DNA of 64,000 nucleotides from an uncultured Clostridia bacterium. GTDB taxonomy: Bacteria > Bacillota > Clostridia > TANB77 > CAG-465. Location: assembly GCA_934169925.1 (NCBI GenBank), contig CAKPOO010000003.1, forward strand, positions 62,847-126,846, read 5' to 3'. This document shows positions 1-47,022 of this stretch, in pieces; the stretch's first letter is position 1, and each line of letters opens with the position of its first letter. Made by a program: the position numbers and the translations under genes. A model generated the notes under the pieces. It had not been told where the DNA came from. It did not search any database and worked only from the letters and a program-made list of their open reading frames with translations.

Positions 1-52
1 GTATGGTATAATCTTAGCATTATATAGTTAATTTGTCAGGAGGAAAAAGCAT

Positions 53-23631: not shown

Positions 23632-23723
23632 GTATTTGATATATTATATATTATGTATTTGTACATATTTTAGAATACATCTTTTTAAATGTAGTGTAAA
23701 ATGTGGATAAATAAGGAGGATAT

Positions 23724-24521: not shown

Positions 24522-24524
24522 AAA

Positions 24525-24995: not shown

Positions 24996-25209
24996 ATTAA
25001 AAAATATTTCAAAATTAAAAGGCTCTGGAATTTTGGTAGTAATTTTATCAGCTATTGCTTTTTCGATTTATTCAATGAGTGTTTTTTCAGAATCTAAACA
25101 TTTTAGTTTGATATTTAGTAAGTATGAAAAAAGTATATCAAATTATTATGAAAAAAATGTAAATGATGTAGATGGATTTTATGATTATATTTTAAAGTTA
25201 AATAAATAA
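24979..25209 (+). CDS. Small pilin-like protein
   Basis: 76 aa; LKGSGILVVILSAIAFSIYSMSVF is a pilin-like helix. Confidence 0.3.
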   Translation: MIQLNKLKNISKLKGSGILVVILSAIAFSIYSMSVFSESKHFSLIFSKYEKSISNYYEKNVNDVDGFYDYILKLNK

Positions 25210-25212
25210 TAG

Positions 25213-26868: not shown

Positions 26869-26881
26869 TTTAGGAGGAAAA

Positions 26882-27979: not shown

Positions 27980-28025
27980 TTTTTTTATTTATAATATAAT
28001 GAATTTATGTGGAAGGAGATAAAAG

Positions 28026-29381
28026 ATGCCAAGTTATAAATATAGAGTAATATATGAAGATGGAAAAATTGGTAGAGGCAGAATACTTGCTAAAAGTAAG
28101 GCTCATGCTATTGAAAGTTTAAAAAATGATAATGTTCAACCTGTATCTATTCAAAGACAGAATGATCCACATAAGAGATTTAAAAAAATTGATTATAAAA
28201 GATTAGTAAGATCTCAAATTATGAAAAATCAGAATTCGAGAGAAAAACATACTCAAAAGGAAAAGATTGATTGGAAAAACTTAACTTTAAGAGACTTAAA
28301 AAAATTAGAATTTCATCCTTTTAGACATGTTACTAGTAAAGATATAATTTCTTTTGTTAATAACTTTTATATATTAAAAAAGGCAAAATTTAATAATGTT
28401 CAAGCTTTAGAAGCTTTATATAATGGTGTAACAAATCCTGCTTTCAAATCTATAGTTGAAGATTTATTAATAGGAGTTCAAGATGGTGAAAAAATATATA
28501 AGATAATGATGAGTTATCCTAAAGTTTTCCCACCAATATTTGTTAATTTCATAAAAGTTGGTGAAGAGTCTGGTACACTTGATAGTGCACTTATATATGC
28601 AAGAGATTATGTAGAAAGTTCTATGGCTTTAAAAAAGAAAATAAGAGCGTCTGTTATTCCAAGAGTTTTACAATTCTTTGGTATAATTATCATGATGTGC
28701 GTAGCTGTTGTTATTGGTGTACCGATGTTACAAGATGTTTATGACATGTTTGATTCATCTGCTGAAATACCAGCTGCTACAATGGGACTTTTAAATGCAG
28801 TTAACTGGTTAATTGCAAATTGGTATTGGGTAGTACTAGGAATTGGTGTTGTAGTATTTGGTTTCTTAGCTATTATAAGTACGACAAGAGGCAGATATAA
28901 TTGGGATAAGTTCTTATTTAGGTGTCCAGTGCTTGGAAATGTTATAAGGAATATAACAATTGAGAAGTTTTTTCTTGCAATGCTTCTTAACTTAAAAAAT
29001 GGTTTAAGATTACAAGAAAGTTTAGAGATATCAAAAACTGTTACAAACAATCTATTTTTCTTATCAACAGTAGAAATTGCAAAAGCAAATGCTATAACAG
29101 GTGAATCTTGGATTACACCTTTTGTGGATAATAAAATATTTACACCTATGATGTCACAAATGGTATCAGTAGGTATGAAAACAGATATTGTTGAAATGAT
29201 AGAGAAAGTAAATGTATATATAAGACAAGAAATTGATGAATCAGTTGCAAAATTTGTTAAAGTTTTACCTGATATTACATATCTTTTTGTTGGTATAGCA
29301 TTGATTGCCTTTGTTATAACAATTGTTGTTCCAATAATTGGAGTATACATGGGAAGTTTCATAACAATCGATAGTTATTAA
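28026..29381 (+). CDS. pilC: Type IV pilus inner-membrane platform protein PilC (GspF family)
   Basis: 451 aa with two T2SF-type repeats separated by TM helices and a typical N-terminal cytoplasmic domain. Confidence 0.75.
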   Translation: MPSYKYRVIYEDGKIGRGRILAKSKAHAIESLKNDNVQPVSIQRQNDPHKRFKKIDYKRLVRSQIMKNQNSREKHTQKEKIDWKNLTLRDLKKLEFHPFRHVTSKDIISFVNNFYILKKAKFNNVQALEALYNGVTNPAFKSIVEDLLIGVQDGEKIYKIMMSYPKVFPPIFVNFIKVGEESGTLDSALIYARDYVESSMALKKKIRASVIPRVLQFFGIIIMMCVAVVIGVPMLQDVYDMFDSSAEIPAATMGLLNAVNWLIANWYWVVLGIGVVVFGFLAIISTTRGRYNWDKFLFRCPVLGNVIRNITIEKFFLAMLLNLKNGLRLQESLEISKTVTNNLFFLSTVEIAKANAITGESWITPFVDNKIFTPMMSQMVSVGMKTDIVEMIEKVNVYIRQEIDESVAKFVKVLPDITYLFVGIALIAFVITIVVPIIGVYMGSFITIDSY

Positions 29382-33378: not shown

Positions 33379-33795
33379 ATGAAAAGTTCAAAAAAATTCT
33401 TATTAAGAATAATACCAGTTTTTGTTGTTTTAAGCATAATATTAACTTCAGTAACAGGAGTTTTTGCATTTGGTAATTTTAATGATATTTCTGAGATTAA
33501 TAAAGGTGCAGGAACTACTGGTGATGGTGTTACATCTGTTAATGGTGCTGTAAATAGAGTATGGAAAACTGTTGTAACTGTTTTACAAATATTAGCAGTT
33601 GCTGCAATAGTTATAGCTGGTGTAAGATATATGTTTGCTTCAGCTGATACAAAAGCTGATATAAAAGGACAAACAGTTGGACTTGTTGTTGGTGCTGTAC
33701 TTGTTTTCGGTGCATCATTTATCGTTCAATTTATTATTAATGTTACTTCAGATGTTACAGGGGTAAAAGAATCACAACAAACACAACAACAATAA
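33379..33795 (+). CDS. VirB2/TrbC-like T4SS pilin paralog 1
   Basis: 138 aa. Signal peptide followed by two hydrophobic helices (TVVTVLQILAVAAIVIAGVRYMF / VGLVVGAVLVFGASFIVQFII) separated by a short charged loop, which is the VirB2 topology. Confidence 0.55.
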   Translation: MKSSKKFLLRIIPVFVVLSIILTSVTGVFAFGNFNDISEINKGAGTTGDGVTSVNGAVNRVWKTVVTVLQILAVAAIVIAGVRYMFASADTKADIKGQTVGLVVGAVLVFGASFIVQFIINVTSDVTGVKESQQTQQQ

Positions 33796-33844
33796 TAATG
33801 TTTTTATAAAATCAGGCTTGACCTGATTTTTTTATTAAAGATAG

Positions 33845-34234
33845 GTGAGATTTATGAATAAATTTAAAATCTTTGCAATAGTCATACTTGTTATTACTTT
33901 ATTTTTAACATTATATCCAGTGGTGTATGCAGATTTTGGAGAAGGTTTTGATCCTAGTAAGGTTGCATATGATAAAGTGTTAGAGGATGATACAGGTGTT
34001 GGAAAAATTACAAGCCCTATAAACAAAATTTTTAATACAATAGTTAGAATTTTACAAATTTTGTCTATTGCAGGAATAATATTAACAGGTCTTAGATATA
34101 TGCTTACAACTGATACTTTAAAAAAAGCAGATTTTAAAGAATCTACTATGTATTTGATAATAGGTATGGTTATAGTATTTTGTGCAAGTACAGTAATTGA
34201 ATTTATTGTAAAAGCTGCAGATGAAGTAATATAG
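33845..34234 (+). CDS. VirB2/TrbC-like T4SS pilin paralog 2
   Basis: 129 aa with the same architecture; the conserved motif IL.ILQI(L/V)S(I/V)A...I.TGL(R/K)YM is shared with paralogs 1 and 3. Confidence 0.55.
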   Translation: MRFMNKFKIFAIVILVITLFLTLYPVVYADFGEGFDPSKVAYDKVLEDDTGVGKITSPINKIFNTIVRILQILSIAGIILTGLRYMLTTDTLKKADFKESTMYLIIGMVIVFCASTVIEFIVKAADEVI

Positions 34235-34254
34235 TAAAAGGAGGATTAAGATAC

Positions 34255-34629
34255 ATGAATAATAGTTACAAAATATTATTTAAAATAATGGCTATTGTAT
34301 TTATAGGTATCATTATTGCAAGTAATGTTAGCATTGTTTTTGCAGATGATCTTTCTGATTTTAACAGTACAGATTTTAATGCTGGAGAAGAAAGCGTAGA
34401 AAAGATTGATACTGCCGTTCTTAAAATTTGGAAAACAGTTGTTACAATTTTACAAATTGTTTCTGTTGCAGCTGTTATTATTACTGGACTTAAGTATATG
34501 TTTGCATCATCAGAGAAAAAAGCTGACATAAAATCTATGTCACTTGGATTTATTGTTGGGGCAGTTATTGTCTTTGGATCTTCGTTTGTTGTATCCTTTG
34601 TTATAAAAGTTGTACAAGATACAATATAA
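34255..34629 (+). CDS. VirB2/TrbC-like T4SS pilin paralog 3
   Basis: 124 aa, same architecture. Confidence 0.55.
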   Translation: MNNSYKILFKIMAIVFIGIIIASNVSIVFADDLSDFNSTDFNAGEESVEKIDTAVLKIWKTVVTILQIVSVAAVIITGLKYMFASSEKKADIKSMSLGFIVGAVIVFGSSFVVSFVIKVVQDTI

Positions 34630-34731
34630 TAAGCTTAAATATTAATAAAAAATCTACTTTTTCATTAAAAAAAGTAGATTTTTTTTTACTTTATTGATAT
34701 AATTTGTATGTGAAAATAGAGAGGTTATTTT

Positions 34732-35700
34732 ATGAACAAAAAGATATTTAGTATAGTTATTATGAGCATAGTATTTTTTGCTATGATAGGTGGCAATGTA
34801 TTTGCATGGGTAGAGTCTGATGACGTATCAAGTTTAAGGAGTGATGAAATAGCAGAAAATATAAAAAGTAGTTTTAATAGTAAAAATATAGATGATTTTT
34901 TTTGCTATGTAAATTATGGATATAGTGATTTATCATCTGAGCAAAAAGAAGAAGTTGATCCATTGATAGAATATTCAGTAAAAAATTATAAAAGTCAGCT
35001 ACTAAGTGCTACAAATAAATTAGATCCTACTGAAGATCCAATAAGTTCACAACTTGATAGTGTTTGGAATAAATTTGAAGGTGGAAAGAGCTTTACTTCT
35101 AATGCGTCATCTGGTTCAAAGTCAGACGATGATAAGAAAAAAGCTGCTGATGATTGGTTTGGTCAAGCTACTTCTTGGTGGGGAGATGCTAAAAAAAGTG
35201 GATTTACAATTCCACAAGAAGCTCAGGATGTAATAGATCAATTTACCGATATGATTAACATTATAGGTACAACTTTAATATTTGTTGCAACAATTGTTCT
35301 TGGAATTAAATTTATATTTGGAAGTATTGATGGAAAATCTGAAGCAAAGGAAGATATGATTACTTTACTTGTAGCTTGTGTATTTTTCTTTGGATGGAAT
35401 GGAATAATGGGGATTCTTTTAAATAATGCTCATGATGACATTGCAATAGTTGAAGGTGAAACTAGTTACGTAACTGTAATTTCTAAAATGTTAACTGTAT
35501 TTAGAACAATTTCAAATTGTTTACTTGTTGTTGGTGTTATTTATGTAGGTATAAAATTTATATTTGCTGGTGCACAGGGAAAAGCAGATTTAAAAGCAAA
35601 ATCTGGTTTTTTTATAATTGGTATTATACTTGCATTTTGTACAGTAAATGTTCTTACTTTCTTATCAGATGTTATAAATCAAGTATTAACAAAAACATAA
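34732..35700 (+). CDS. Secreted/membrane protein with an N-terminal soluble domain and two tandem C-terminal VirB2-like hairpin modules
   Basis: 322 aa with a signal peptide. The C-terminus carries two copies of the ...IKFIFG(S/A)..GK..(A/L)K... TM-hairpin motif found in the three small pilins. Confidence 0.45.
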   Translation: MNKKIFSIVIMSIVFFAMIGGNVFAWVESDDVSSLRSDEIAENIKSSFNSKNIDDFFCYVNYGYSDLSSEQKEEVDPLIEYSVKNYKSQLLSATNKLDPTEDPISSQLDSVWNKFEGGKSFTSNASSGSKSDDDKKKAADDWFGQATSWWGDAKKSGFTIPQEAQDVIDQFTDMINIIGTTLIFVATIVLGIKFIFGSIDGKSEAKEDMITLLVACVFFFGWNGIMGILLNNAHDDIAIVEGETSYVTVISKMLTVFRTISNCLLVVGVIYVGIKFIFAGAQGKADLKAKSGFFIIGIILAFCTVNVLTFLSDVINQVLTKT

Positions 35701-35727
35701 GGAATATAAGAATTAGGGGGTTAATAT

Positions 35728-36129
35728 ATGGGAAAATCTTATTATGTTCCACGTAGTGTTAAAGGTGAGACAAGAATACTTATTATATTTACAGTTAAGT
35801 CATTTATTTTTACTCTTGCTTTTGGACTTATAGGTGGTGGAATTTGGGCTTTAGGCTCAAATCTATTTGGAATGGGAATGTTTCCAGGAATTGCAGTTAC
35901 AATTTTATTTGGAGGATTTGGTTATTTAATTGGTACAGCTAAAATACCTGATTCACCAATAATGGGACCATTTCAAAAAGCTGGTGGTGAATATGTTAGT
36001 GAAATAATTAAAAGATTTATCACTTTTAAATCAAGAAAAAAAATATATTTATATAATTACAATAGAGAAAATATAATTAATAATAAAAATAATAAAAATA
36101 GTAGTAATAACAAAGGAGGAAAAAAATAA
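35728..36129 (+). CDS. PrgI-family (VirB3-like) small membrane protein
   Basis: 133 aa. N-terminal YYVPRSVKGETRILIIFTVKSF fits the PrgI-family N-terminal pattern; two TM helices; sits just upstream of the VirB4 gene. Confidence 0.55.
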   Translation: MGKSYYVPRSVKGETRILIIFTVKSFIFTLAFGLIGGGIWALGSNLFGMGMFPGIAVTILFGGFGYLIGTAKIPDSPIMGPFQKAGGEYVSEIIKRFITFKSRKKIYLYNYNRENIINNKNNKNSSNNKGGKK

Positions 36130-37514
36130 TGCCTTATATTCTTTTAGGAGTTCTAGGTATATTTGGTGTAGTATTTTATTTTTATAATAAATCACAAACA
36201 AAAAAGGAAGATACTTCAAATATATCAAATAAAGATAAAGATAAAAATAAAAATTCATCTTCTGGTACTAAATCAGCAGATGTAAAAAAAGATGATGTAT
36301 TCAATTTTATGGAATTTGATAAAATTCAAGATGGTATGATTGTTCAAAATAAAGGAACAAAATATACAATGGCAATTAAATGTAAAGGGGTTAACTATGA
36401 CTTAATGTCTGATGTTGAACAACTTGCAGTAGAAGAAGGATTTATTACTTTTTTAAATACTTTAAGATATCCAATTCAATTATATGTACAAGCACAAAAT
36501 ATTGATTTAAAAGGTGCTATTAATACATACAAAAATAATGTAGCAAATATTAATGATGAATTTAATCAAATTGATAGAGAATATCAAAAAGTTCTTGAAT
36601 CATTTGAAGCTTCTGAAGAAGATATTGATAAAATTGAAAAAGAAAGAAGTAAAGTAAAAAATGTTTATGAATATGCAAACGATATTATAAACTACGTAGA
36701 AGTATTAGGATCTAATAAAGCATTATTACAAAGAAGCTTTTATGTTTTATTATCATACTATACTTCTGAGATAAATGCTTCAAGTAACTTTAGTAAAGAA
36801 GAAGTTGTTAATATGTGTTATAACGAACTTTTAACAAGAGCAAAAGGTATTTGTAGTGCACTTGCAGGTTGTGGAGTTGAAGGTAAAGTATTAAACTCAA
36901 ATGAACTTGCAGATCTATTATATAATGCATATAACAGAGATGATAAAGGATTAATTGATGTTAAAAATGCGTTAGAATCAGGATTTTATAGATTATATTC
37001 TACATCAAAAGATGCTTATGAGAAAAAAGAAGAACTATTAGAAGCAGAAATTGAGAAAAAAGCAAAATTAAAAGCATATAAAGCAATTAAAACTTCAATA
37101 GAAAATGGTACATACGTTTCTGATAAAGCAAAAGAATTGCAAAACGAAGAAGTTGTAAGTAGAGTTGCAACTGAAATAGTAAAAAGAGAAGATGTTCCAG
37201 TTGAAGTAAAAAAAGATGCTCAAAAAAATATAATAGAGGAATATAGACAAGATAAAAGAAAAATATTACTTGAAATAAATGATGAAAAACAAGAAAAGTT
37301 ATCAGAAGCTAATAAAGAAATTGAAAATTTGACAGGGGAAAAAGCAACTACTCAAGAAACAAATAAAGTTGAAGAAACTGCAAAAGATGTTGCAAAAGAA
37401 ATCACAAAACAAGAACTAGATTTAAGAAATGAAGAAGAAAATATTGCTCCTGTTTCTAATAATAAAGTAAATGAAAATTTCTTTGATGATTCAGAAGATG
37501 ATAGTATAATTTAA
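36129..37514 (+). CDS. Membrane-anchored coiled-coil protein of the T4SS-like cluster
   Basis: 461 aa with an N-terminal TM, a Lys/Asp-rich linker, and long predicted coiled coils in the C-terminal half. Translationally coupled to the upstream gene. Confidence 0.45.
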   Translation: MPYILLGVLGIFGVVFYFYNKSQTKKEDTSNISNKDKDKNKNSSSGTKSADVKKDDVFNFMEFDKIQDGMIVQNKGTKYTMAIKCKGVNYDLMSDVEQLAVEEGFITFLNTLRYPIQLYVQAQNIDLKGAINTYKNNVANINDEFNQIDREYQKVLESFEASEEDIDKIEKERSKVKNVYEYANDIINYVEVLGSNKALLQRSFYVLLSYYTSEINASSNFSKEEVVNMCYNELLTRAKGICSALAGCGVEGKVLNSNELADLLYNAYNRDDKGLIDVKNALESGFYRLYSTSKDAYEKKEELLEAEIEKKAKLKAYKAIKTSIENGTYVSDKAKELQNEEVVSRVATEIVKREDVPVEVKKDAQKNIIEEYRQDKRKILLEINDEKQEKLSEANKEIENLTGEKATTQETNKVEETAKDVAKEITKQELDLRNEEENIAPVSNNKVNENFFDDSEDDSII

Positions 37515-37537
37515 TTTAACTTTGGGGGATTAGATAT

Positions 37538-39550
37538 ATGAGTAAAAAAGAAGATAAAAAGAATAAAAAAGATAAAAAGAATAAGGAGAAAAAAGGTAGT
37601 GTAAGTAATGAAGAGATTATAGCAAATAACTCAGATGATTTTAATTCGTTAAAACTTAATCAATCTTCTTTACAAGATTTACTTGCTCCATCTGGTATAG
37701 ATGCATCTCATTATGATTACTTAGAAATATTTTCAAAAGTTTCAAGATTTGCTAGAACATTTTATGTTACAACAATACCAAGACAAGCTACATTTCCATA
37801 CTTTTTATCTGGAGTATATGAATTTGGTGATGTAAATACTTCTGTATATATAACACCTATATCAGAAACAACATCACAAAACGAATTAAATAAAACAATT
37901 GTAGAATTACAATCAGAAAGATATGTTGCAGAAGATAGAGGAGATATAAACAGAGCATCAGTACTATCTGCAAAACAAGCAGAAGCAGAAGCACTTCGTG
38001 ATCAAATAGCTGCAGGTTATAACAAATTATTTGATGCAACTATAGTTTGTACTTTGTTTTCATATACAAAAGCAGAACTTGATAAACTTTCTGAAATACT
38101 TGCAATGGAAGCATCAAAAACTCAACTTGGATTAAAAACAGCTTGGGCTTTACAAGAAGAAGGCTTTAAATCTAATTTACCTTTAAATTCGAATAAAATT
38201 ACAAGAAAACATACTTTTGATAGAGGTTCTATGGCAACAGTATTTCCTTTTGTAAATGCCGATGCTGGTATGGATACAGGTGTTCCAATAGGAATTAACA
38301 AACAAACAGGATTACCTTTATTATTTGATAATTTTAGTTCATCACTTACAAATTATAACATGATAATTTTTGGTAAATCTGGTGCTGGTAAATCTGTTAC
38401 AATAAAAACTATAATGGCAAGATCTGCTATATTAATGGGTGTTGAAAACCTTGTACTTGATGCTGAAGGAGAATATGTTGTTGTTGCTGATGCATTAAGA
38501 GGTATAAACGTTGATATTAGTCCAAAATCAGATACAATTATTAATATATTTGATGTTGAAACAGAAATTGAAAAAGATGAAATTACTGGTAAAGATAAAT
38601 TTGTTTTAAATATCGAAAACAAAGTAGAAGATGTTACACAATCTCTTCTTACTATGGCAAGAGGTGCAACAAAATCTCAAGAAGTTAACGAACTTACAAA
38701 ACAAATAATTGCTGAAATTGTTGCAGAAGAATATGCAGCAAAAGGTATTACTTCTGATCCGGATTCACTTTATACAAGTGAAACTACTTTTGATGAAGAA
38801 GGTAATATTGGTAAAATAAAAAAATTAATGCCTACAATTAGTGATTGGTATGAAAGACTACTTAAAAAAGCAGAAGAAAATGAAAATGATACATACAAAT
38901 ATCACTATGATTATTTAGTTAAAGTTATGAAACAATATTGTAAAAAATATAATGGACAAATGGCATATTTTGACGGTCAATCAACATTTGATTTACTTGA
39001 AGGTTGTCCTTTCATAAACATTAACTTATCTCAATTAGAGGAAAAATTTGCAAGACCACTTGCACAACAAATCTTACTTTCATGGATTTGGGAAAAATAT
39101 GTTAAAAAGAACAGTGAAGATAAGACAAAAGCAAGACAAAAAAGAGTGCTTGTCGATGAAGCATGGATGCTTTTACCTTATCCTGAAGCTGTAGACTTCT
39201 TAAATACAATGGCAAGACGTGCTAGAAAAAGAAATGTTTCATTAACAGTTGTTTCACAGAAATTCCAAGATTTCTACGAAAACAAAAATGTTCAAGCAGT
39301 ATTAACATCTGCTGATACAAAACTATTCTTAGCACAAGATAAATCTGAAATTGCTTATTTACAAGAAGTATTTAAATTAAGTGATGGTGAATCAAACTTC
39401 TTAATAACTTGCACAAGAGGTGAAGGATTAATTAAAATCGGATATTCATCAGCAGTTATTGCAATTAGACCAACTCAAAGAGAATTTGAGTTTGTTGAAA
39501 CAAATATGACAAAATTATTTGAAATGAACAAGAATAAAAATAGAATTTAA
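37538..39550 (+). CDS. VirB4/TraE-family T4SS ATPase
   Basis: 670 aa with Walker A IIFGKSGAGKSVT and the VirB4 Walker B signature VLVDEAWMLL. The N-terminal domain (YDYLEI...RTFYVTTIP) is as in the Gram-positive VirB4 homologs TcpF, PrgJ and Tn916 Orf16. Confidence 0.8.
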   Translation: MSKKEDKKNKKDKKNKEKKGSVSNEEIIANNSDDFNSLKLNQSSLQDLLAPSGIDASHYDYLEIFSKVSRFARTFYVTTIPRQATFPYFLSGVYEFGDVNTSVYITPISETTSQNELNKTIVELQSERYVAEDRGDINRASVLSAKQAEAEALRDQIAAGYNKLFDATIVCTLFSYTKAELDKLSEILAMEASKTQLGLKTAWALQEEGFKSNLPLNSNKITRKHTFDRGSMATVFPFVNADAGMDTGVPIGINKQTGLPLLFDNFSSSLTNYNMIIFGKSGAGKSVTIKTIMARSAILMGVENLVLDAEGEYVVVADALRGINVDISPKSDTIINIFDVETEIEKDEITGKDKFVLNIENKVEDVTQSLLTMARGATKSQEVNELTKQIIAEIVAEEYAAKGITSDPDSLYTSETTFDEEGNIGKIKKLMPTISDWYERLLKKAEENENDTYKYHYDYLVKVMKQYCKKYNGQMAYFDGQSTFDLLEGCPFININLSQLEEKFARPLAQQILLSWIWEKYVKKNSEDKTKARQKRVLVDEAWMLLPYPEAVDFLNTMARRARKRNVSLTVVSQKFQDFYENKNVQAVLTSADTKLFLAQDKSEIAYLQEVFKLSDGESNFLITCTRGEGLIKIGYSSAVIAIRPTQREFEFVETNMTKLFEMNKNKNRI

Positions 39551-39578
39551 AAATTAAATTTAAAATGGATGAGGATTT

Positions 39579-41192
39579 ATGAAATTAATAAGGATGAAAA
39601 GGAAATTTACAAAAGTTTTTTGTGTGGCGATATTCGTTATTGTTTTTATCAATTTCTTTGGTAGTGGAATTTACGCACAAGTAAATACAAATTATGGAGT
39701 AGGAGATAAAGGTTCAATAACAGTAAATTTAAGAAATTATAACGATGATAGTACTTTCTTATCAGTAATGGCTCAAATTATATATATAATTGCAGCTATA
39801 TTTGAAAATATTATTGCTGGTTTATTTAGTTTGCTTACAGGAACAAAGGTGTTCCCATGGGCAGATAGAATTATATTTAATGCCATTCCATTTTTAGACG
39901 TAAATTTTATGAATCCACATTCAGGTTCTTTATTTGAATCTTCATCAGGCTCACAAACTGCTTTGGCAGGAGTTATACAAAATATATATTATACAGTATT
40001 TATAATTGCAGTAGCATTTTTTTCAGTATGCGTAGGAATTTATGCTTTAAGACTTGTATTTGCAACTATTGCTTCTAAAAAAGCAGAGTATAAACAAGCA
40101 ATAGTAAAAGTGTTAATGTCAATGCTTTTATTATTCTTGACACATTATTTAATTTCATTTATATTTTTCGTAAATGAAAAATTAGTAGAAGTTGCATCTC
40201 AAATATTACTTAATAATTCAGAAGAGTATCTATCTGAAGTTGCAGTAGATGATATAAAAACGGACAGAAAAAATGCAATGATTTCTAGTTACACAGATGG
40301 AAAAGATGGTTTACTTGGTCATTTTTCTACTAGTGCGATAAAAAATAATAATTTGAATACTGAAACTAAAGAAGGAAAGTATAATTTAGAACATACTGAT
40401 GCATATAACATTGAAAGTGGTTCAGGTGAAGATATAGCACCTAAATATGCTGACAATAAATATTATAAATATGTTGTTGCACTTGTTACTGGAAAATTTG
40501 AATCAAAAGATAATCCAAATATAACAATAAAAAATTGGAGTAAATACAAAGATAATGAACTTGCCGGTATATATAATCCTTCAACAGGACTTATTTATAG
40601 TGACTTGGGAGCTGATAATGTTACATCTTTTAGATTACTAAATTTATTAAGTGATGTTCAATATTTAGGAGATAAAATAGAAGGTGTTGTAAATGGTAAA
40701 AGTAGAACAGAGGCAATAGAAGCTATTAGAAAAGACTATACGTATTACTCTACAACAGTCACAACGAATAAGGATAATGAAACAATAGAATTCACAACTG
40801 GAAAAAGAATTCGTTATACAACTGCATTTATAGATGTGTTAAAAAATAATCAACGTAAGTGTGATAATTTAGAACAAAGAATGACAGAACAAGAATTAGC
40901 TGCTTTTTTATATGATACATGGGATGCATTAAAAGATGTAAAATATAAAGATATTGAATCTGTAACAAATAAGAATGTATTATCAGGGCTTAGTTCTTAT
41001 TTTAAGAAAACAGCATATAATTCAAAAAGCTCACCTAAATTTAATATTATTTCATGTATATTATATGCAATTTTTTTAATACAATCTTTAATGTATTTTG
41101 TTGCATACTTTAATAGATTCTTTTATATTATTGTACTTTCAATAATGGCTCCACTTGTAATAGTTTATGATTTCTTTTCAAGTCGGCGCTAA
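39579..41192 (+). CDS. Polytopic membrane protein, paralog 1 of a 4-member family (VirB6/TrbL-like, hypervariable central domain)
   Basis: 537 aa. Conserved N-terminal module (FPWADRIIFNAIPFLDVNFMNP...YYTVF...CVGI.AL.LVFA.IASKKA.YK...FL.HYLISFIFFVNEKLVE.AS), divergent middle, and conserved C-terminal two-TM module (CILYAIFLIQSLMYFVAYFNRFFYIIVLSIMAPLVIVYDFF). Confidence 0.5.
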   Translation: MKLIRMKRKFTKVFCVAIFVIVFINFFGSGIYAQVNTNYGVGDKGSITVNLRNYNDDSTFLSVMAQIIYIIAAIFENIIAGLFSLLTGTKVFPWADRIIFNAIPFLDVNFMNPHSGSLFESSSGSQTALAGVIQNIYYTVFIIAVAFFSVCVGIYALRLVFATIASKKAEYKQAIVKVLMSMLLLFLTHYLISFIFFVNEKLVEVASQILLNNSEEYLSEVAVDDIKTDRKNAMISSYTDGKDGLLGHFSTSAIKNNNLNTETKEGKYNLEHTDAYNIESGSGEDIAPKYADNKYYKYVVALVTGKFESKDNPNITIKNWSKYKDNELAGIYNPSTGLIYSDLGADNVTSFRLLNLLSDVQYLGDKIEGVVNGKSRTEAIEAIRKDYTYYSTTVTTNKDNETIEFTTGKRIRYTTAFIDVLKNNQRKCDNLEQRMTEQELAAFLYDTWDALKDVKYKDIESVTNKNVLSGLSSYFKKTAYNSKSSPKFNIISCILYAIFLIQSLMYFVAYFNRFFYIIVLSIMAPLVIVYDFFSSRR

Positions 41193-41229
41193 ACTTTAAA
41201 TAATTACTAAATTATATGGATGGTTAATT

Positions 41230-42879
41230 ATGATAATTAATAAAAAATTAGGAAAATTAATATTATCGGTTTTTATAGTAATATTATGTTTTAATATATT
41301 TTCAAATACAATTTATGCAGCTATTAATCAATCTTATAAAACTACAACTAATGCAGATGCATCTAAATTAGATGAGGATATGAATGATGATGAAACATTT
41401 TTATCCATGACTGCACAAGTAGTTTATATTATTACATCCGGTATAGAATGGGTAGTTTCAAAATTGGTTGGAATATTTACTACAACAGATAAATTTCCTT
41501 GGGCAGATAAAATTATATTCAATGCAGTTCCTATGTTGGATGTCAATTTTATCAATCCTTCAAGTTATTCTTTATTTGAAAGGTCTGAAGGAACCTCAAC
41601 TGCTATAGCTGAAATATTAAAAAATTTATATTATACAGTATTTACAATAGGAGTTTCATTTTTTGGTGTATGTGTTGGTATAATAGCTTTAAAACTTATT
41701 TTTGCTTCAATTGCATCACAAAAAAATAAATATCAAAAGGCTTTATTTGAAGTATTTAAATCATTAATATTATTGTTTATATCATATTATTTGATATCAT
41801 TTTTGTTTTATGTTAATGAAAAATTAGTTGAATCAGCAAGTTCAATATTATTAAAAACATTAAAGGATAACAATCTTGAATTTCAATATATACCTGAAAA
41901 AGAATATAACAAAGAAGTAGTTGATAATAATGCAAATTGGCAAGCAGATCAAATGTTAGGAACTGGTATTACACCAAAGAATTATTATAATGGGGGATCT
42001 GACAATATTGCTGAAAAGAGTTATTACACAGATACAGAATGGAAGGAAACTCTTGTTTTAAGTGATGAATCAAATCCATTTAGAACAATGGATAATAAAC
42101 AATTTATTGAGAAAGTTACTTCTGATGCAACTGCATCTGATAAAGCATATAAATATTTATTTTTTGATATATTATCAAATAATACATTGCCATATTTTGA
42201 TAAGTATTTTAATGAATTATGGCAAGGTAGCAATGAAGCAGATGTAACACATTTATCACCAAGTAACATGAATAATATAATGATAGCAAATTTAATATAT
42301 GATGTATATAAATTAAATACTATACTTGAAAAACATGATTTTAAAGTAGGGGATAATGAAGCATATAAAGAAATAGAAGAATATGCAAGATATGAAGATT
42401 CACCTAGTAATGATGGTTCATGGGTTAGTTATTATAAAGGTAAAAGACTAAGACCAAAAGTATTGATAAAAGGAAATGGTGTATATGCATCAAATGAAGA
42501 AATTGTTGGATTTTTTAAGGCTATATATGATGATGTGGCATCAAGGTATAACAATAATGGAAATAATAAAGATGCTGAATTGTTAGAAGATAAAGAATTT
42601 GATAATAATGAAGTTGTACTAAGTTCTATGGGAGTATATTTTAAAAGTAGAGCATATTATGCAAATATGGTAGGAAAATCAGGAAGTATTGCAGCATCAG
42701 AAAGTAAAACAACTAAAAAATATAACGTAGTTGCCTGTGTATTATATGCAATATTTGTTGTACAATCAATAATGTATTTAATTTCATACTTTAAAAGATT
42801 CTTTTATATTATAATATTATCGATGATAGCTCCGCTTGTTATCGTATATGACTTTTTAACAAAAGCGGTAAATAATTAA
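41230..42879 (+). CDS. Polytopic membrane protein, paralog 2
   Basis: 549 aa; same conserved terminal modules, different core. Confidence 0.5.
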   Translation: MIINKKLGKLILSVFIVILCFNIFSNTIYAAINQSYKTTTNADASKLDEDMNDDETFLSMTAQVVYIITSGIEWVVSKLVGIFTTTDKFPWADKIIFNAVPMLDVNFINPSSYSLFERSEGTSTAIAEILKNLYYTVFTIGVSFFGVCVGIIALKLIFASIASQKNKYQKALFEVFKSLILLFISYYLISFLFYVNEKLVESASSILLKTLKDNNLEFQYIPEKEYNKEVVDNNANWQADQMLGTGITPKNYYNGGSDNIAEKSYYTDTEWKETLVLSDESNPFRTMDNKQFIEKVTSDATASDKAYKYLFFDILSNNTLPYFDKYFNELWQGSNEADVTHLSPSNMNNIMIANLIYDVYKLNTILEKHDFKVGDNEAYKEIEEYARYEDSPSNDGSWVSYYKGKRLRPKVLIKGNGVYASNEEIVGFFKAIYDDVASRYNNNGNNKDAELLEDKEFDNNEVVLSSMGVYFKSRAYYANMVGKSGSIAASESKTTKKYNVVACVLYAIFVVQSIMYLISYFKRFFYIIILSMIAPLVIVYDFLTKAVNN

Positions 42880-42905
42880 AAATTTAAATTTGAAGAAAGG
42901 ATATT

Positions 42906-44540
42906 ATGAAAAAGATAAATAAAATTTTAATAGTAAGTTTTATACTTTTAATTTTTATAAATATTTTTTGTAGTGGTTCTGTTTTTGCAGCTATTAATAA
43001 AGGCTACTCATCAGAATCAGCACCTACATTTAATTCACATATTGAAGTTATCCTTTCGGATAATATAGTAGTAAAGGCTTTAGAGCATTTTATATATTGG
43101 ATTGCAAATGCTCTAGAAACTTTAATCAAAAATATATTTGGTGCTTTAACTGGATCATATGTTTTCCCATGGGCAGATGGTATAATATTTAATTCGGTAG
43201 CACTACTTGATATAAATTTTATAAATCCATCTACAGGATCACTATTTTTAAATACTTCAGGAAATTCCACACCAATAGGTGCTATATTTAAAAATTTATA
43301 TTACACCGTATTTGTACTAGCAGTTGGATTTTTTTCAGTGTGTGTAGGTGTAATGGCTCTAAGACTTGTATTTTCTTCAATAGCTTCAGAGAAGGCAAAA
43401 TACAAAAAAGCAACACTTAATTGCTTTATGTCTTTATTAATGCTATTTACAACTCAGTATTTAATTTCTTTTATATTTTTTGTAAATGAAAAACTTGTAA
43501 CATCTGCAAGCATGATACTAAGTGATAAAATTGAAACTTTTACATTTGAATCTGAAGTACAATCTGCACTTGAAGCAAGACAAGATAATTTAAGTAAGCA
43601 AGGGTTACTTGGATCAAATGATCCTAATCATATAAAAGAAACAATACAATCAGATGCATATAATTATTACATAAAAAATCATATAGGTGATCTTCCACAA
43701 ACAAACGAAGAACAAACAAGGAAAAATGAAGTAAGTAGAACATCAGCGTATAGTAGATTATCAGAATCTGATATTACAAATCTTGGAAAAACACTTTCTT
43801 CAAATAAATATTATAAATATGCTGTTTTAATAATTACTGGTAAATTCCAAGATGTAGATTTAACAAACGATCCTCTATGGATAAAATATAAAGATGAAGA
43901 GATGGTTTCATATAACGTAATAGATGGCGTTGGTACATATGGTATATATAATCCAAATAAAGGAAGAATAACTGATGATTTAGCTTCAGATAATACTACA
44001 GCATATACTTACTATAGATTTATAAACTTGATATCTGATATAAAATATACTGCAGATTCTGGAGGAGCAAGCAAAGAACAAATAAAGAGTAATTATACAA
44101 ATTACACTGATGTAGCAGATACTCAACATTTATTTATACAAAATTGTAAAAGATTTGTCGTAAATTCAAAATCAGCAGAAAATGGTGCAACTTCTCAAGC
44201 TAAAACTTTGTATAAAAAAAGAATGAGTTCAGATGAACTGGCAGATTTTATAAAAAAAGTGCATGATAGTTTAAAAGATGTTGAATATAATGATGTTACA
44301 AATTTAAATGATGAAAATGTTTTTTCAGGTCTTGGAGATTTCTTTAAACAAAGTGCTTATGATTCTTCAAAGAAAAAAGATAAATACAATTTCATTGCTT
44401 GTATTGTTTATGCTATATTTTTAATACAATCAATAATGTATTTTATTGCATATTTTAAAAGATTTTTCTATATTTTAATACTTGCAATGTTTGCACCTAT
44501 AGTTATAGTGTATGATTTCTTTACAAAGTCATTTACTTAA
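42906..44540 (+). CDS. Polytopic membrane protein, paralog 3
   Basis: 544 aa; same conserved terminal modules, different core. Confidence 0.5.
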   Translation: MKKINKILIVSFILLIFINIFCSGSVFAAINKGYSSESAPTFNSHIEVILSDNIVVKALEHFIYWIANALETLIKNIFGALTGSYVFPWADGIIFNSVALLDINFINPSTGSLFLNTSGNSTPIGAIFKNLYYTVFVLAVGFFSVCVGVMALRLVFSSIASEKAKYKKATLNCFMSLLMLFTTQYLISFIFFVNEKLVTSASMILSDKIETFTFESEVQSALEARQDNLSKQGLLGSNDPNHIKETIQSDAYNYYIKNHIGDLPQTNEEQTRKNEVSRTSAYSRLSESDITNLGKTLSSNKYYKYAVLIITGKFQDVDLTNDPLWIKYKDEEMVSYNVIDGVGTYGIYNPNKGRITDDLASDNTTAYTYYRFINLISDIKYTADSGGASKEQIKSNYTNYTDVADTQHLFIQNCKRFVVNSKSAENGATSQAKTLYKKRMSSDELADFIKKVHDSLKDVEYNDVTNLNDENVFSGLGDFFKQSAYDSSKKKDKYNFIACIVYAIFLIQSIMYFIAYFKRFFYILILAMFAPIVIVYDFFTKSFT

Positions 44541-44578
44541 AATAGGTAATAATATTAAATTTACAAAAGGAAAGAATT

Positions 44579-46039
44579 ATGATAAAAGAAAGTTCAAAAA
44601 ATAAAAAAATAAAAAGATTAACATTTATATTAACTATAATGCTGTTATTTGTTACTATATGTAATTTTTTACCTAATAATGTAATATTTGCAGAAACAAA
44701 CTCTAATTATACAGATCAAGATGCTTTCCAAGTAGATGATCTGGATAAGAGTATAAAGCAAAACTTTTTAATTGATATATTAGGTTCATTTATATATGGT
44801 TTAGCTTCTATAGTAGAGGGGTTAGTAAGTTGGGTTTTTGAATTATTTACTGGTGTAAATTCATTCCCATGGGCAGATAAAATTATATTTAATGCAGTTC
44901 CTTTACTTGATGTTAACTTTATAAATCCATCTGATGGCTCGTTATTTAGTACAGAAGCAGCAATAGATAGTATTATAAAAAATTCATATTATACAGTATT
45001 TACATTAGGTGTAGCTTTTTTAGGAGTTGCTATTGGTGTAATGGCAATAAGAATTGTTTTTGCAAGTATAGCATCTGAAAAAGCAAAATACAAAGAATTA
45101 GTAACACAAGCTGCTGTAGCAATTTTGTTACTTTTCATGTCACACTATTTTATTTCATTTATATTTTTTATAAATGAAAAAATGGTAGAAGTAGCAAGTT
45201 CAATATTTTCTCAGGCAGTAGAAAAAGTTGATAATAATGTGAGTTTAACGGTAGTATCAGATGCAACAAAAAGTGAGATTGTCCATCAATTTCAACAGGA
45301 TATAAATGGCTTGAATTTTAAAACAGTATTTAATTTAAATCCTATAAACGCTATTAGAAGTACAATTGGTAATATAAAAGCTGTAGTAGATGAAATAAAA
45401 GGAAAGCCAAATAAAGGAGCAGGACTTGATAGTCCGCAATATAGAGATTATGTATATTACTTATTAACAGATCAGTACTATGTAAAAAAAGAATTATCGA
45501 ATGTATATAGCAGAGGTCAAAATATATTACAAAATATTTGGTTAGGAATAATTACAGTTTTTTATGATGATTCTACAGATCAAATTGAAAATTTAATTGA
45601 AGATGTGTGCTTTTTGTCAGAAATTGACACATATAAAGCTCAAAATTCTAGTATGAAAATAGCTGATGTAAAAACAGCGATTAATGAATATGTAGACAAA
45701 AATAGAGGTGGAAAAGATTACTTAAAAAATATACTTTTATCTGCATGGGGAGAGAAAAACCTTACAGATGATAAAGTTTCAAAAAATAATACTTTCCAAG
45801 GAATTGGACAATTCTTTAAAGAAAATGCATGGACATATGCAACAGATTCAAATGGTAAGATAAAAGGTTGGAAAGCTGGAAAAAATAGTATAATTTCAAC
45901 ATTGTTATATGCAATATTTATTTTACAATCAATAATGTATTTCGTTTCGTATTTTAAAAGGTTTTTCTACATATTGGTTCTTGCAATGTTTGCACCAATA
46001 GTAGTAGTATTTGACTTTTTAACTAAGGTAATAAATTAA
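44579..46039 (+). CDS. Polytopic membrane protein, paralog 4
   Basis: 486 aa; same conserved terminal modules, different core. Confidence 0.5.
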   Translation: MIKESSKNKKIKRLTFILTIMLLFVTICNFLPNNVIFAETNSNYTDQDAFQVDDLDKSIKQNFLIDILGSFIYGLASIVEGLVSWVFELFTGVNSFPWADKIIFNAVPLLDVNFINPSDGSLFSTEAAIDSIIKNSYYTVFTLGVAFLGVAIGVMAIRIVFASIASEKAKYKELVTQAAVAILLLFMSHYFISFIFFINEKMVEVASSIFSQAVEKVDNNVSLTVVSDATKSEIVHQFQQDINGLNFKTVFNLNPINAIRSTIGNIKAVVDEIKGKPNKGAGLDSPQYRDYVYYLLTDQYYVKKELSNVYSRGQNILQNIWLGIITVFYDDSTDQIENLIEDVCFLSEIDTYKAQNSSMKIADVKTAINEYVDKNRGGKDYLKNILLSAWGEKNLTDDKVSKNNTFQGIGQFFKENAWTYATDSNGKIKGWKAGKNSIISTLLYAIFILQSIMYFVSYFKRFFYILVLAMFAPIVVVFDFLTKVIN

Positions 46040-46057
46040 TATAATAAGGAGGATTTT

Positions 46058-47011
46058 ATGAAAGGAAATGTTTTTAGTAAATGGCTACAAGAGTTTTGTT
46101 CACTTGTTTTTGTACAAACAATTCAAGCTTTTATACTTGCAATGATAATGACAATTGTAATATCTGCCATGAATGCAGGTGGAAACTCAGATAGTTCAGA
46201 AGTATTGTATTCTACTGGTATACTTGCAATCGTTGCATTAACATCAATATCAAAAATTGAAGAATTAGTAAAAAATATCTTTGGTCTTCAAGGTGGACTT
46301 GGTGATAAAGCAAATATGAAAAATGGTGCTGGAGCACTTGTTGGTACTATGATGGCAGCAAGATTTGCAAAGAGGTTCTTGGATAATGGTCAGAAAATGG
46401 CTAGTGGTGTAAAAGGAGTGTTTGACGCTAATACTCAAAGAAGAGTTAACAGAGCAAATTGGGATAAATCTACATCAGCAGCAAATCAAAAATATGATGA
46501 TAATGTAAAAGAACTAGATGATAAATTTATTCAAGAATATGGAAATAGATCTACTTGGGATACACAAACAAAGCAAAGATATGAAGATAAAATTGAAAAA
46601 CTTAAAGATAAAAGAGATAGTACACTTACATCTGCAAATAAAGCATATCAAGAAGGCGAAAAAGCAGCAAGTAAGAACTTTAAAACTTCAGCACAAAAAT
46701 TTACTTCAGGAGCTACAGAGGGGTTACTTGGTACAGGTGGTGCAGTATTAGGAGCTACAGGAAGTCTTATTTATCATGGTGCATCAGGTGAAGTAAAACC
46801 ATCCCACGTACTAAATAGTTCACTTACTGGAATGGGATTAGGTGATTCACTTGGAGAAACAATCAATAATACAGCATATACTCATATAGTAAAAACTCAA
46901 TTGGAAAGATCAGAAAAACTAGCAGAAAAACAAAGCAAACGTGATTATAACAGAAATAGAAAAGCTATAGATGCAGCGTTAAAGAAAATAAATGATGTTG
47001 ATAATATTTAA
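46058..47011 (+). CDS. Membrane protein with a C-terminal coiled-coil/repetitive region (T4SS-cluster component)
   Basis: 317 aa; two or three N-terminal TM helices followed by a hydrophilic repeat-like region (NxKYDD / KxYxE). Confidence 0.4.
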   Translation: MKGNVFSKWLQEFCSLVFVQTIQAFILAMIMTIVISAMNAGGNSDSSEVLYSTGILAIVALTSISKIEELVKNIFGLQGGLGDKANMKNGAGALVGTMMAARFAKRFLDNGQKMASGVKGVFDANTQRRVNRANWDKSTSAANQKYDDNVKELDDKFIQEYGNRSTWDTQTKQRYEDKIEKLKDKRDSTLTSANKAYQEGEKAASKNFKTSAQKFTSGATEGLLGTGGAVLGATGSLIYHGASGEVKPSHVLNSSLTGMGLGDSLGETINNTAYTHIVKTQLERSEKLAEKQSKRDYNRNRKAIDAALKKINDVDNI

Positions 47012-47022
47012 GTGGTGTTTAT

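What the first reader, a model, noticed from the sequence alone, without database searches (positions are those of the whole stretch)
39579..46039. Four tandem paralogs with conserved membrane modules and a hypervariable central domain
ORFs of 537, 549, 544 and 486 aa share near-identical N-terminal modules (signal/TM, FPWAD(K/R)IIFNA(V/I)P.LDVNF(I/M)NP, YYTVF..GV.F.GV.VG..A(L/I)(R/K)L(V/I)FA(S/T)IAS.KA.YK, ...(H/Q/Y)Y(L/F)ISF(I/L)F(F/Y)(V/I)NEK(L/M)V) and C-terminal two-TM modules ((L/I)YAIF(L/V)(I/V)QS(L/I)MY(F/L)..YF(K/N)RFFYI(L/I)(I/V)L(S/A)(I/M)(M/F)APLV(I/V)VYDF). Their middle 200-250 residues are unrelated in sequence and length. That is the pattern of a family whose exposed core is diversifying, or of alternative variants of one structural component such as a VirB6/TrbL-like channel or a pilus tip adhesin or receptor-binding module. 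The conserved FPWAD...NP segment is not a motif I can place in a known family.
Basis: seen in the sequence. Interest (0 to 1): 0.75.

Follow-up and report, generated by a model that had tools for sequence, protein, structure and literature searches.

The report
Four tandem split VirB6-like secretion subunits
Four neighbouring genes in an uncultured gut Clostridia chromosome encode variant copies of the front half of the VirB6-like membrane platform of a pilus-type type IV secretion system; each copy has the same membrane core, including a segment related to the pilus subunit, and a different fast-evolving outward-facing domain.

Summary
Four co-oriented ORFs (537/549/544/486 aa) share N- and C-terminal membrane modules at 50-62% identity, which is not "near-identical". 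Their centres are 16-34% identical; centres 1 and 3 are homologous, and centre 2 has no relative among 1.84 billion proteins.

The genes follow VirB3 and a split VirB4 in a chromosomal type IV secretion cluster that carries four VirB2-like pilin genes. No relaxase or coupling protein lies in the 64 kb window. The cluster is conserved in about 80 uncultured gut Clostridia species.

Their first transmembrane hairpin is homologous to the cluster's own pilins (hhalign 97.8%, E 1e-12; controls negative). Between strains, differences sit almost entirely in the centres while the flanks are identical, which indicates recombinational allele replacement.

The closest analogue is the Rickettsiales virB3-virB4-virB6×4 operon. 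I file this as a new variant of a known kind. Its function is inferred, not shown.

The parts
39579..41192 (+). Paralog 1 (537 aa), front half of a split VirB6-like protein. Signal peptide aa 1-33 (cleavage IYA|Q, inferred). Conserved extracytoplasmic segment aa ~56-125 (FPWAD...LDVNF.NP). VirB2-like hairpin aa ~126-200 (39954-40178). Variable centre aa 216-472 (40224-40994). Second hairpin aa 473-537.
   Evidence: hydrophobic segments; T4SS_pilin hit at aa 126-194; hhalign to the cluster's pilins; AF2: core pLDDT 82-94, centre 40-60.
41230..42879 (+). Paralog 2 (549 aa). The centre, aa 214-469 (41869-42636), is an orphan domain.
   Evidence: no relative at E<=0.001 among 1.84e9 representative proteins except itself; no significant match to the other centres.
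42906..44540 (+). Paralog 3 (544 aa). The centre, aa 212-477 (43539-44336), is homologous to centre 1 (type A).
   Evidence: Strain variation: 6-17 of 266 residues differ in the centre against 0-1 in the flanks.
44579..46039 (+). Paralog 4 (486 aa). The centre, aa 217-410 (45227-45808), is type B, orthologous to the last copy in two related species.
   Evidence: In strain L001 49 of 194 centre residues differ while both flanks are identical (dS 0.44 against 0).
46058..47011 (+). Single-copy 317-aa gene, the back half of the split VirB6-like protein: two or three hydrophobic helices followed by a charged tail.
   Evidence: Collinear with residues 482-841 of the natural fusion P0073 (E 2e-25). 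Weak TrbL hit. Present once in every split locus.
33379..35700 (+). Array of four VirB2/TrbC-like pilin genes (138, 129, 124 and 322 aa). The 322-aa protein has two pilin hairpins in tandem.
   Evidence: Pfam TrbC/T4SS_pilin. Sequence read. Homologous to hairpin 1 of the paralogs.
35728..39550 (+). VirB3/PrgI-like gene (133 aa), TrsD-like free-standing VirB4 N-part (461 aa) and VirB4 ATPase (670 aa), immediately upstream of the paralogs.
   Evidence: CD1110-type VirB4, 1.2e-61; Mbov_0397 N-part, 7e-7. TrsD concept from PMC12102498.
47023..52554 (+). Downstream cluster genes: 201-aa and 289-aa proteins with no family match, and a 1339-aa cell-wall hydrolase with a Peptidase_M23 domain (VirB1-like role, inferred).
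   Evidence: All three are syntenic in related loci.

Best explanation
WHAT IT IS (well supported)
The four ORFs are tandem paralogs of the N-terminal part of a split, 'extended' VirB6-like subunit. They belong to a chromosomally encoded type IV secretion system that has VirB2-like pilins and shows no relaxase or coupling protein in the 64 kb window. The system is conserved in a lineage of uncultured, low-GC gut Clostridia.

Each protein has, in order:
- a cleavable signal peptide;
- a conserved outward-facing segment (FPWAD...LDVNF.NP);
- a transmembrane hairpin homologous to the system's own pilins;
- a 190-265-residue variable domain predicted to lie outside the membrane;
- a second conserved hairpin.

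The rest of the VirB6 fold comes from the single downstream 317-aa protein.

HOW IT LIKELY WORKS (inferred)
- The four genes are co-transcribed with virB3 and virB4.
- Each front half pairs with the common back half to form VirB6 protomers.
- As in R388 and pCF10, the protomers would assemble as the (pentameric) platform in the membrane on which pilins are stacked. The pilin-like hairpin offers a pilin-shaped docking surface.
- The cell therefore makes platforms, mixed or alternative, that differ only in the domain projecting into the wall or onto the surface.
- That domain and the pilins are the parts that vary between strains. The variation arises by recombinational replacement that uses the conserved modules as homology arms.
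- This pattern fits selection from something that sees the cell surface: partner or recipient cells, phages or host antibodies.
For: Position:
- The genes lie directly after VirB3, the TrsD-like gene and VirB4 here and in 77 species-level loci.

Split and fusion:
- Proteins of 840-920 aa equal a family protein plus the 317-aa protein.
- A single fused gene follows VirB4 in about 40 more distant loci.

Fold:
- The AF2 model of fusion P0073 has a core pLDDT above 85.

Sequence families:
- TrbL_4 matches 11 of 39 fused forms, spanning hairpin 1 to the start of the back half.
- There are weak hits to Mycoplasma ICE membrane proteins encoded next to VirB4.

Pilin homology:
- Pfam T4SS_pilin matches all four paralogs and 29 of 39 fused forms.
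- hhalign of the N-module against the cluster's pilins gives 97.8%, E 1.3e-12, over 97 columns.
- Controls (reversed pilins, VirB3, C-module, back half) all give P>=0.04.

Centre as an insertion:
- Forms of about 300 aa lack the centre.

Selection and variation:
- All four genes are intact in 7 contigs.
- Strain differences are confined to the centres, with raised dS and dN and dN/dS of 0.2-0.5, and to the pilins (dN/dS about 1). VirB4, VirB3 and PGI are identical at the protein level.

Age of the duplications:
- Modules are 60-80% identical in DNA.
- Related species carry 3 copies, and the last copy is orthologous to paralog 4.

Expression signals:
- Each gene has its own ribosome-binding site and there is no terminator between them.
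Against: - No curated VirB6/TrbL model reaches its threshold. TrbL_4 scores at best 19.1 bits against a cutoff of 27, and none of the four paralogs themselves matches it.
- No detectable sequence similarity to pCF10 PrgH or Tn916 Orf15, or to any PDB sequence.
- Foldseek against the PDB found nothing significant.
- The fold match rests on a predicted structure of a homologue, not of the window proteins.
- Topology, co-expression, pairing with the 317-aa protein, oligomeric state and any role of the variable domain are all inferred.
- Gene-average dN/dS is below 1, so positive selection is not demonstrated.
Confidence: 0.62

Rival explanations
1. The paralogs are minor or tip pilins, functional analogues of VirB5. 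The VirB2-like hairpin would let them be extracted from the membrane and built into the pilus tip, and the variable centre would be an adhesin or receptor-binding domain. The four copies would then give alternative tip specificities.
For: - Signal peptide plus a pilin-homologous hairpin.
- A large variable domain predicted to face outwards, with variation between strains alongside the pilins.
- No VirB5 homologue was recognised in the cluster.
Against: - Every family member has a second conserved hairpin.
- In about 40 species the protein is covalently fused to further membrane helices and a long charged tail, which is hard to extract into a fibre.
- The fused form matches the whole VirB6 fold.
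- By helix counting, the pilin-like hairpin appears to be part of that fold.
- The 322-aa double-pilin protein is a better candidate for a minor pilin.
Confidence: 0.15
2. The extra copies are redundant duplicates that are drifting, on the way to loss of function. The variable centre would be a dispensable loop under relaxed constraint with no specific role.
For: - Most species manage with one copy, and some copies lack the centre entirely.
- In L084 one copy is broken into 342 + 148 aa.
- The centres are predicted with low confidence.
- Centre dN/dS is 0.2-0.5, higher than for housekeeping genes.
Against: - All four ORFs are intact in 7 independent contigs.
- The modules show no amino-acid change between strains, apart from 1 residue in two contigs.
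- The duplications are old (60-80% DNA identity; orthologues in other species), yet the modules remain 50-62% identical with many invariant residues.
- dN/dS below 1 indicates purifying selection on the centres.
- Independent duplications recur in several lineages.
Confidence: 0.1
3. The paralogs are surface or entry-exclusion, or self-recognition, proteins of a conjugative element. They would be variable so that different element lineages are distinguished.
For: - Membrane proteins with a variable exposed domain encoded inside a T4SS operon.
- Allele-like replacement between strains.
Against: - The cluster is chromosomal and syntenic across species: PGI, TraX and SSB lie upstream, and S1, the Na/Ala symporter and DnaE downstream.
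- No relaxase, coupling protein or integrase lies in the 64 kb window.
- The protein provides most of the VirB6 fold, which is a core machine part.
Confidence: 0.05

Closest known systems
VirB6/TrbL platform subunit (e.g. TrwI of plasmid R388; Pfam TrbL families including TrbL_4 PF19597)
   Same: - Encoded next to virB3/virB4.
- Polytopic and helical.
- Weak TrbL_4 and TrbL hits.
- The expected role is a platform that recruits VirB2 (PMC12624023, PMC12857230).
   Different: - About 9% identity to TrwI, and below every curated HMM threshold.
- The gene is split in two, and the front half is present in four copies.
- A 190-265-aa variable domain is inserted between the two hairpins.
- The first hairpin shows clear sequence homology to the cognate pilins.
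- The host is a monoderm.
Rickettsiales rvh T4SS: virB3-virB4-virB6-1..4 (or 5) operon with multiple virB2 genes
   Same: - The same gene order, with 4 tandem VirB6 paralogs after virB3-virB4.
- In Anaplasma the paralogs are co-transcribed; here that is only inferred.
- Extended hydrophilic, surface-exposed parts.
- VirB6 and VirB2 are the components that vary between strains (PMC7648143).
   Different: - An independent expansion in an unrelated, monoderm lineage.
- Rickettsial paralogs are complete VirB6 proteins with huge C-terminal extensions or repeats. Here only the front half is amplified and the variable part is a central insertion.
- No outer-membrane components and no VirD4 nearby.
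Patescibacteria (CPR) chromosomal T4SS
   Same: - The same parts list: TrsD-like protein, PrgI/VirB3, VirB4, VirB6, arrays of divergent VirB2-like pilins (PF18895/PF04956) and M23-type wall hydrolases.
- No relaxase, and a chromosomal location (PMC12102498).
   Different: - Found here in Clostridia MAGs, not Patescibacteria.
- VirB6 is split and amplified.
- A phylogenetic relationship between the VirB4 proteins was not tested.
'Extended VirB6' proteins of Gram-positive MPF_FA elements (Tn916 Orf15, TcpH) and pCF10 PrgH
   Same: - Position beside VirB4.
- Multi-helix membrane core plus extra hydrophilic regions, and a size of 700-900 aa when fused.
- PrgH is modelled as a pentamer carrying the VirB2-like PrgF (bioRxiv 10.64898/2025.12.18.695078).
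   Different: No detectable sequence similarity to Orf15 or PrgH by profile-versus-sequence comparison (probability <=2%).
Mycoplasma ICE membrane proteins (NCBIfam NF045889 Mbov_0396, NF045848 MMCAP2_0566)
   Same: - The best curated sequence matches (E 4e-7 to 7e-3), covering both the N- and C-modules.
- About 300-aa proteins, like the family's short forms.
- Mbov_0396 is numbered adjacent to the VirB4 gene Mbov_0397.
   Different: - Scores of 16-30 bits against cutoffs of 70-90.
- No central domain in the Mycoplasma proteins.
VirB2/TrbC pilins (PF04956, PF18895)
   Same: Hairpin 1 has the pilin layout: helix, short K-rich loop (A.EKAKYK), helix. It is homologous to the four pilins encoded 4-6 kb upstream.
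   Different: The paralogs are 486-549 aa with a second hairpin and a large domain, and the hairpin is embedded in a VirB6 fold. They are not free polymerising subunits.

Membership tests
VirB6/TrbL | Encoded within a T4SS cluster adjacent to virB3/virB4 | tested here: met
   VirB3-like, TrsD-like and VirB4 genes lie immediately upstream, and the order is conserved in 77 loci.
VirB6/TrbL | Polytopic membrane protein with about 5 or more hydrophobic helices | tested here: met
   Each paralog has a signal peptide plus 4 strong hydrophobic helices. The 317-aa partner adds 2-3 more.
VirB6/TrbL | Match to a curated TrbL/VirB6 HMM above its gathering score | tested here: not met
   The four paralogs give no TrbL hit. 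The 317-aa protein scores 13.1 bits on TrbL (cutoff 25.9). Fused relatives score at most 19.1 bits on TrbL_4 (cutoff 27), in 11 of 39.
VirB6/TrbL | VirB6 three-dimensional fold | tested here: met
VirB6/TrbL | Pentameric assembly that recruits VirB2 and supports pilus or channel formation | not testable with these tools
   No multimer prediction or experiment was available.
Gram-positive VirB6 groups (PrgH; Orf15/TcpH) | Detectable sequence homology to PrgH or Orf15 | tested here: not met
   hhalign of the family profiles against pCF10 PrgH and Tn916 Orf15 gives probability <=2%. The targets were single sequences, so sensitivity was limited.
VirB2/TrbC pilin (PF04956, PF18895) | Signal peptide followed by two hydrophobic helices joined by a short charged loop, with sequence homology to pilins | tested here: met
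   As a domain only. T4SS_pilin scores 17-24 bits in all four paralogs, below the 26.6 cutoff. hhalign to the cluster's pilins gives 97.8%, E 1.3e-12, and four negative controls all give P>=0.04.
VirB2/TrbC pilin (PF04956, PF18895) | Small free-standing subunit (about 70-150 aa mature) able to polymerise | tested here: not met
   The proteins are 486-549 aa with a second hairpin and a 190-265-aa domain, and they are fused to more membrane helices in many species.
Mycoplasma ICE TM proteins (NF045889 / NF045848) | Score above the NCBIfam cutoff | tested here: not met
   Best scores are 29.7 bits against 90 and 28.2 bits against 70.
Conjugative element (ICE or plasmid) T4SS | Relaxase, coupling protein (VirD4/TcpA) and integrase or replicon nearby | tested here: not met
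   None in the 64 kb window. The flanks are housekeeping genes: PGI, DnaE, RNase R, SpoIIIA, Mur ligase. None lies within +-10 kb in L069. There is no match in the plasmid or phage collections. The rest of the genome was not seen.

The most novel reading that the evidence does not exclude
The VirB6 platform contains a true homologue of the VirB2 pilin as an integral part of its fold. In this reading the platform acts as 'layer zero' of the pilus and templates pilin stacking by mimicry.

This lineage would then have split VirB6 so that the pilin-like, surface-facing front half can be duplicated and swapped by recombination. The result would be a chromosomal, non-conjugative, Patescibacteria-like T4SS in uncultured small-genome gut Clostridia whose partner or target specificity, or evasion of phages and antibodies, is set by interchangeable VirB6 ectodomains together with variable pilins.
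Probability: 0.25. Interest if true: 0.8.

Novelty: new variant of a known kind. Interest (0 to 1): 0.6.

Why it matters
- VirB6 is the least understood core part of type IV secretion systems. This is a natural case in which it is cut in two, its front half carries a recognisable pilin-homologous hairpin, and that half is multiplied with different exposed domains. It offers a direct handle on how VirB6 recruits pilins and on what the 'extended VirB6' domains do.
- Pilin-bearing, relaxase-less chromosomal T4SSs were recently described as a peculiarity of Patescibacteria. The cluster here shows the same parts list as a conserved chromosomal feature of a whole group of uncultured, prevalent gut Clostridia.
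- The strain-level pattern (invariant machine, recombining surface parts) marks the variable domains and pilins as the parts most likely to interact with other cells, phages or the host.

Tried and rejected
- **Known plasmid or phage element:** megablast and tblastn against the plasmid and phage collections found nothing.
- **PDB sequence profile search:** only low-complexity or coiled-coil noise from the C-terminal tail.
- **Foldseek against the PDB (fused model):** nothing significant. R388 stalk chains recur only at E 1.4-7.
- **afdb50 library:** unavailable.
- **hhalign to pCF10 PrgH/PrgF and Tn916 Orf15:** negative.
- **Promoter scan:** uninformative in 25% GC DNA, with 158 sites found against 147 expected.
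- **Gene-conversion tracts or cassette-switch repeats between the paralogs:** none. The longest shared DNA is 60-80% identical and there are no meaningful inverted repeats. Programmed shuffling between copies is therefore not supported.
- **One paralog per pilin gene:** rejected, because single-copy species also have 2-5 pilin genes.
- **TANB77 'conserved pilin' paper (PMC11680825):** it concerns a different, Tad/CpaF-type pilus cluster.
- **Structure of the variable centres:** not obtained (pLDDT 40-60), so no fold search of the centres was meaningful.
Full report
**1. Observation**

The region 39579-46039 holds four co-oriented ORFs of 537, 549, 544 and 486 aa. They are separated by 26-38 nt, and each is preceded by a purine-rich ribosome-binding site. 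They are clear paralogs: BLASTP of paralog 1 against paralog 4 gives E 2e-76.

A four-way alignment, scored by region, gives these identities:
- N-terminal module: 50-57%
- C-terminal module: 50-62%
- central 190-265 residues: 16-34%

The quoted motifs are real, and many of their residues are invariant across 106 family members. Two statements are too strong. The modules are not "near-identical": their DNA is only 60-80% identical. The centres are not all unrelated:
- Centres 1 and 3 are homologous (E about 1e-24).
- Centre 4 belongs to a second type.
- Centre 2 is an orphan. It has no relative at E<=0.001 among 1.84 billion representative proteins.

**2. Genomic context**

The window is 25% GC and chromosomal. 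It carries RNase R, formate-THF ligase, a SpoIIIA gene, type IV pilus genes, PGI, DnaE, YchF and a Mur ligase.

The paralogs lie inside a type IV secretion cluster at 33379-52554, in this order:
- four TrbC/VirB2-like pilin genes
- a PrgI/VirB3-like gene
- a free-standing VirB4 N-part (TrsD-like)
- a VirB4 ATPase
- the four paralogs
- a 317-aa membrane protein
- two proteins with no family match
- a 1339-aa M23 hydrolase

TraX, SSB and a small M23 gene lie just upstream. No relaxase, coupling protein or integrase is present in the 64 kb. Nothing similar exists in the plasmid or phage collections.

**3. Relatives**

All homologues are unnamed proteins from metagenomes.

A scan of one genome per species found 77 loci, all in uncultured gut Clostridia MAGs from human, rabbit, chicken and ruminant samples. 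They include Clostridium sp. CAG:921 and CAG:465 and a closed 1.57 Mb chromosome. The gene order pilins-VirB3-VirB4N-VirB4-family gene is conserved in nearly all of these loci. The downstream 201-aa, 289-aa and hydrolase genes were recognised in the closer species. In several of the closer species the flanking housekeeping genes are conserved too.

Copy number of the family gene (L084 and L085):

| Copies | Loci |
|---|---|
| 1 | 65 |
| 2 | 11, typically one long copy plus one of about 300 aa that lacks the centre |
| 3 | L084 and L085 (two related species) and L066 (the last with no VirB4 in the stretch held) |
| 4 | only the window's species, in seven contigs from different samples |

A tree of the conserved modules places the window's four copies and those of L084/L085 in one clade. 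Paralog 4 is orthologous to the last copy in both species. Paralogs 1 and 2 are the youngest pair. Independent duplications occurred in other lineages.

**4. What the protein is**

Several results point to a split VirB6-like protein:
- (a) Some relatives are 840-920 aa and equal a family protein fused to the homologue of the downstream 317-aa gene. In the more distant half of the loci a single fused gene of 700-1090 aa follows VirB4. The window proteins are therefore front halves, and 46058-47011 is the common back half.
- (b) Of 39 fused forms, 11 give sub-threshold hits to Pfam TrbL_4. In one of them the alignment runs from the first hairpin to the start of the back half.
- The confident core of P0073 has only about 226 residues in total. 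The match must therefore include both hairpins and the back-half helices (inference by counting).
- (d) The best curated sequence matches are Mycoplasma ICE membrane proteins; one of them, Mbov_0396, is numbered adjacent to the VirB4 gene Mbov_0397. These fall far below their cutoffs.

Negative results:
- No curated TrbL model reaches its threshold.
- PrgH and Orf15 are not detectably similar.
- PDB sequence and Foldseek searches gave nothing significant.
- Paralog 1 modelled alone gives only generic helical hits.

**5. The pilin-like hairpin**

All four paralogs, and 29 of 39 fused forms, give weak hits to Pfam T4SS_pilin at the same place.

A profile of the N-module aligns to a profile of the clusters' own small pilins with 97.8% probability (E 1.3e-12, 97 columns). 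The alignment covers the whole mature pilin and shares the loop motif S.A.EKA.YK. Controls give P>=0.04: reversed pilins, VirB3, the C-module and the back half.

By homology with pilins (signal peptide, out-in-out), and by the positive-inside rule for the K-rich loop and for the YF(K/N)RFF loop, the conserved FPWAD...NP segment and the variable centre lie outside the membrane. This topology is inferred. The short forms show that the centre is an insertion between the two hairpins.

**6. Variation within the species**

The comparison covers six contigs of the same species, all selected for an identical paralog 1.
- VirB4, VirB3, the 201-aa protein, PGI and TraX are 99.6-100% identical.
- Differences concentrate in the centre of paralog 3 (6-17 of 266 residues, against 0-1 in the flanks) and in the centre of paralog 4 (49 of 194 in one strain, flanks identical).
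- They also concentrate in the pilins (76-91% identity), the back half (94.6% in two strains) and the hydrolase.

Synonymous and non-synonymous divergence rise together in the centres. For the paralog 4 centre dS is 0.44 and dN 0.16, while the flanks have dS 0. This is the signature of recombinational replacement by a divergent allele rather than local mutation. dN/dS is 0.2-0.5 in the centres and about 1 in the small pilins.

No repeats suggest programmed cassette switching between copies. No terminator separates the copies.

**7. Mechanism proposed**

This section is inference.

Each front half would pair with the single back half to complete a VirB6 protomer. According to the R388 structure and the PrgF/PrgH models, VirB6 protomers form a pentameric platform on which VirB2 is recruited and stacked (PMC12624023, PMC12857230, bioRxiv 10.64898/2025.12.18.695078). 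The embedded pilin-like hairpin is a plausible docking or templating surface.

Four co-expressed front halves would give mixed or alternative platforms that differ only in the wall- or surface-facing domain. That domain evolves and recombines together with the pilins. This points to an interaction with something outside the cell: a partner cell, a phage or host immunity.

The function of the whole system is unknown. It lacks the hallmarks of conjugation and has the same parts list as the Patescibacteria T4SS (PMC12102498).

**8. Comparison with what is known**

The nearest organisational analogue is the Rickettsiales virB3-virB4-virB6x4/5 operon. It has variable VirB6 and VirB2 proteins and surface-exposed extensions (PMC7648143). 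The window's array is an independent expansion in a monoderm. It affects only the front half of a split gene, and the variable part is a central insertion.

"Extended VirB6" proteins are known, but the function of their extensions is not. I found no paper describing this Clostridia system. The TANB77 pilin paper concerns a different, Tad-type cluster. Placing the organism in the GTDB order TANB77 is a recollection, not a test.

**9. Verdict**

| Item | Call |
|---|---|
| Observation | confirmed |
| Novelty | new variant of a known kind |
| Confidence in the identity (split VirB6 front halves) | about 0.8 |
| Confidence in the proposed working model | about 0.35 |
| Overall confidence | 0.62 |
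| Interest | 0.6 |

Noticed in passing
window 34732-35700 (+): The 322-aa 'pilin' has a signal peptide, a hydrophilic N-domain of about 150 aa and two VirB2-like hairpins in tandem (aa ~165-228 and ~245-318). It is the most polymorphic gene between strains (76% aa identity) and is a candidate minor or tip pilin.
   Followed up: partly
window 31021-52554 (+) and loci L007-L085: The whole cluster is a chromosomal T4SS with no relaxase or coupling protein nearby. It has a VirB2 array, a TrsD-like split VirB4 N-part, PrgI/VirB3, TraX, SSB and M23 hydrolases. This is the same parts list as the recently described Patescibacteria T4SS, but it is conserved and syntenic in about 80 uncultured gut Clostridia species.
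   Followed up: partly
window 33379-34234 (+): The small pilins of 138 and 129 aa differ by 9-15% between strains whose VirB4 and PGI are identical, with dN/dS about 1. A terminator-like hairpin (33808-33830) follows the first pilin gene.
   Followed up: partly
window 36129-37514 (+): The 461-aa ORF overlapping the VirB3-like stop codon matches only the N-terminal third of mycoplasma-type VirB4 (E 7e-7). VirB4 is therefore split into a TrsD-like protein and a 670-aa ATPase in all related loci.
   Followed up: partly
L066 3106-15216 (Lachnospiraceae MAG): Three consecutive long ORFs (2185, 955 and 885 aa) carry the family's N-module. No VirB4 lies in the 20 kb held, which may be a different context for the family.
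   Followed up: no
L084 8494-9976: In a related species the middle copy of a three-copy array is broken into 342 + 148 aa ORFs. This may be a pseudogene or an assembly frameshift.
   Followed up: no
window 13860-29381 (+): A SpoIIIA-type sporulation operon (Spore_III_AE at 15882) is followed by a type IV pilus gene set (PilN-like at 19046, prepilin peptidase at 23724, PilB at 25213, PilT-like at 26882, PilC at 28026). The same chromosome segment therefore carries two different pilus systems.
   Followed up: no
window 47023-48518 (+): The 201-aa and 289-aa proteins downstream of the back half have no family match in Pfam or NCBIfam but are syntenic in most loci. They may be VirB8-like components; this was not tested structurally.
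   Followed up: no
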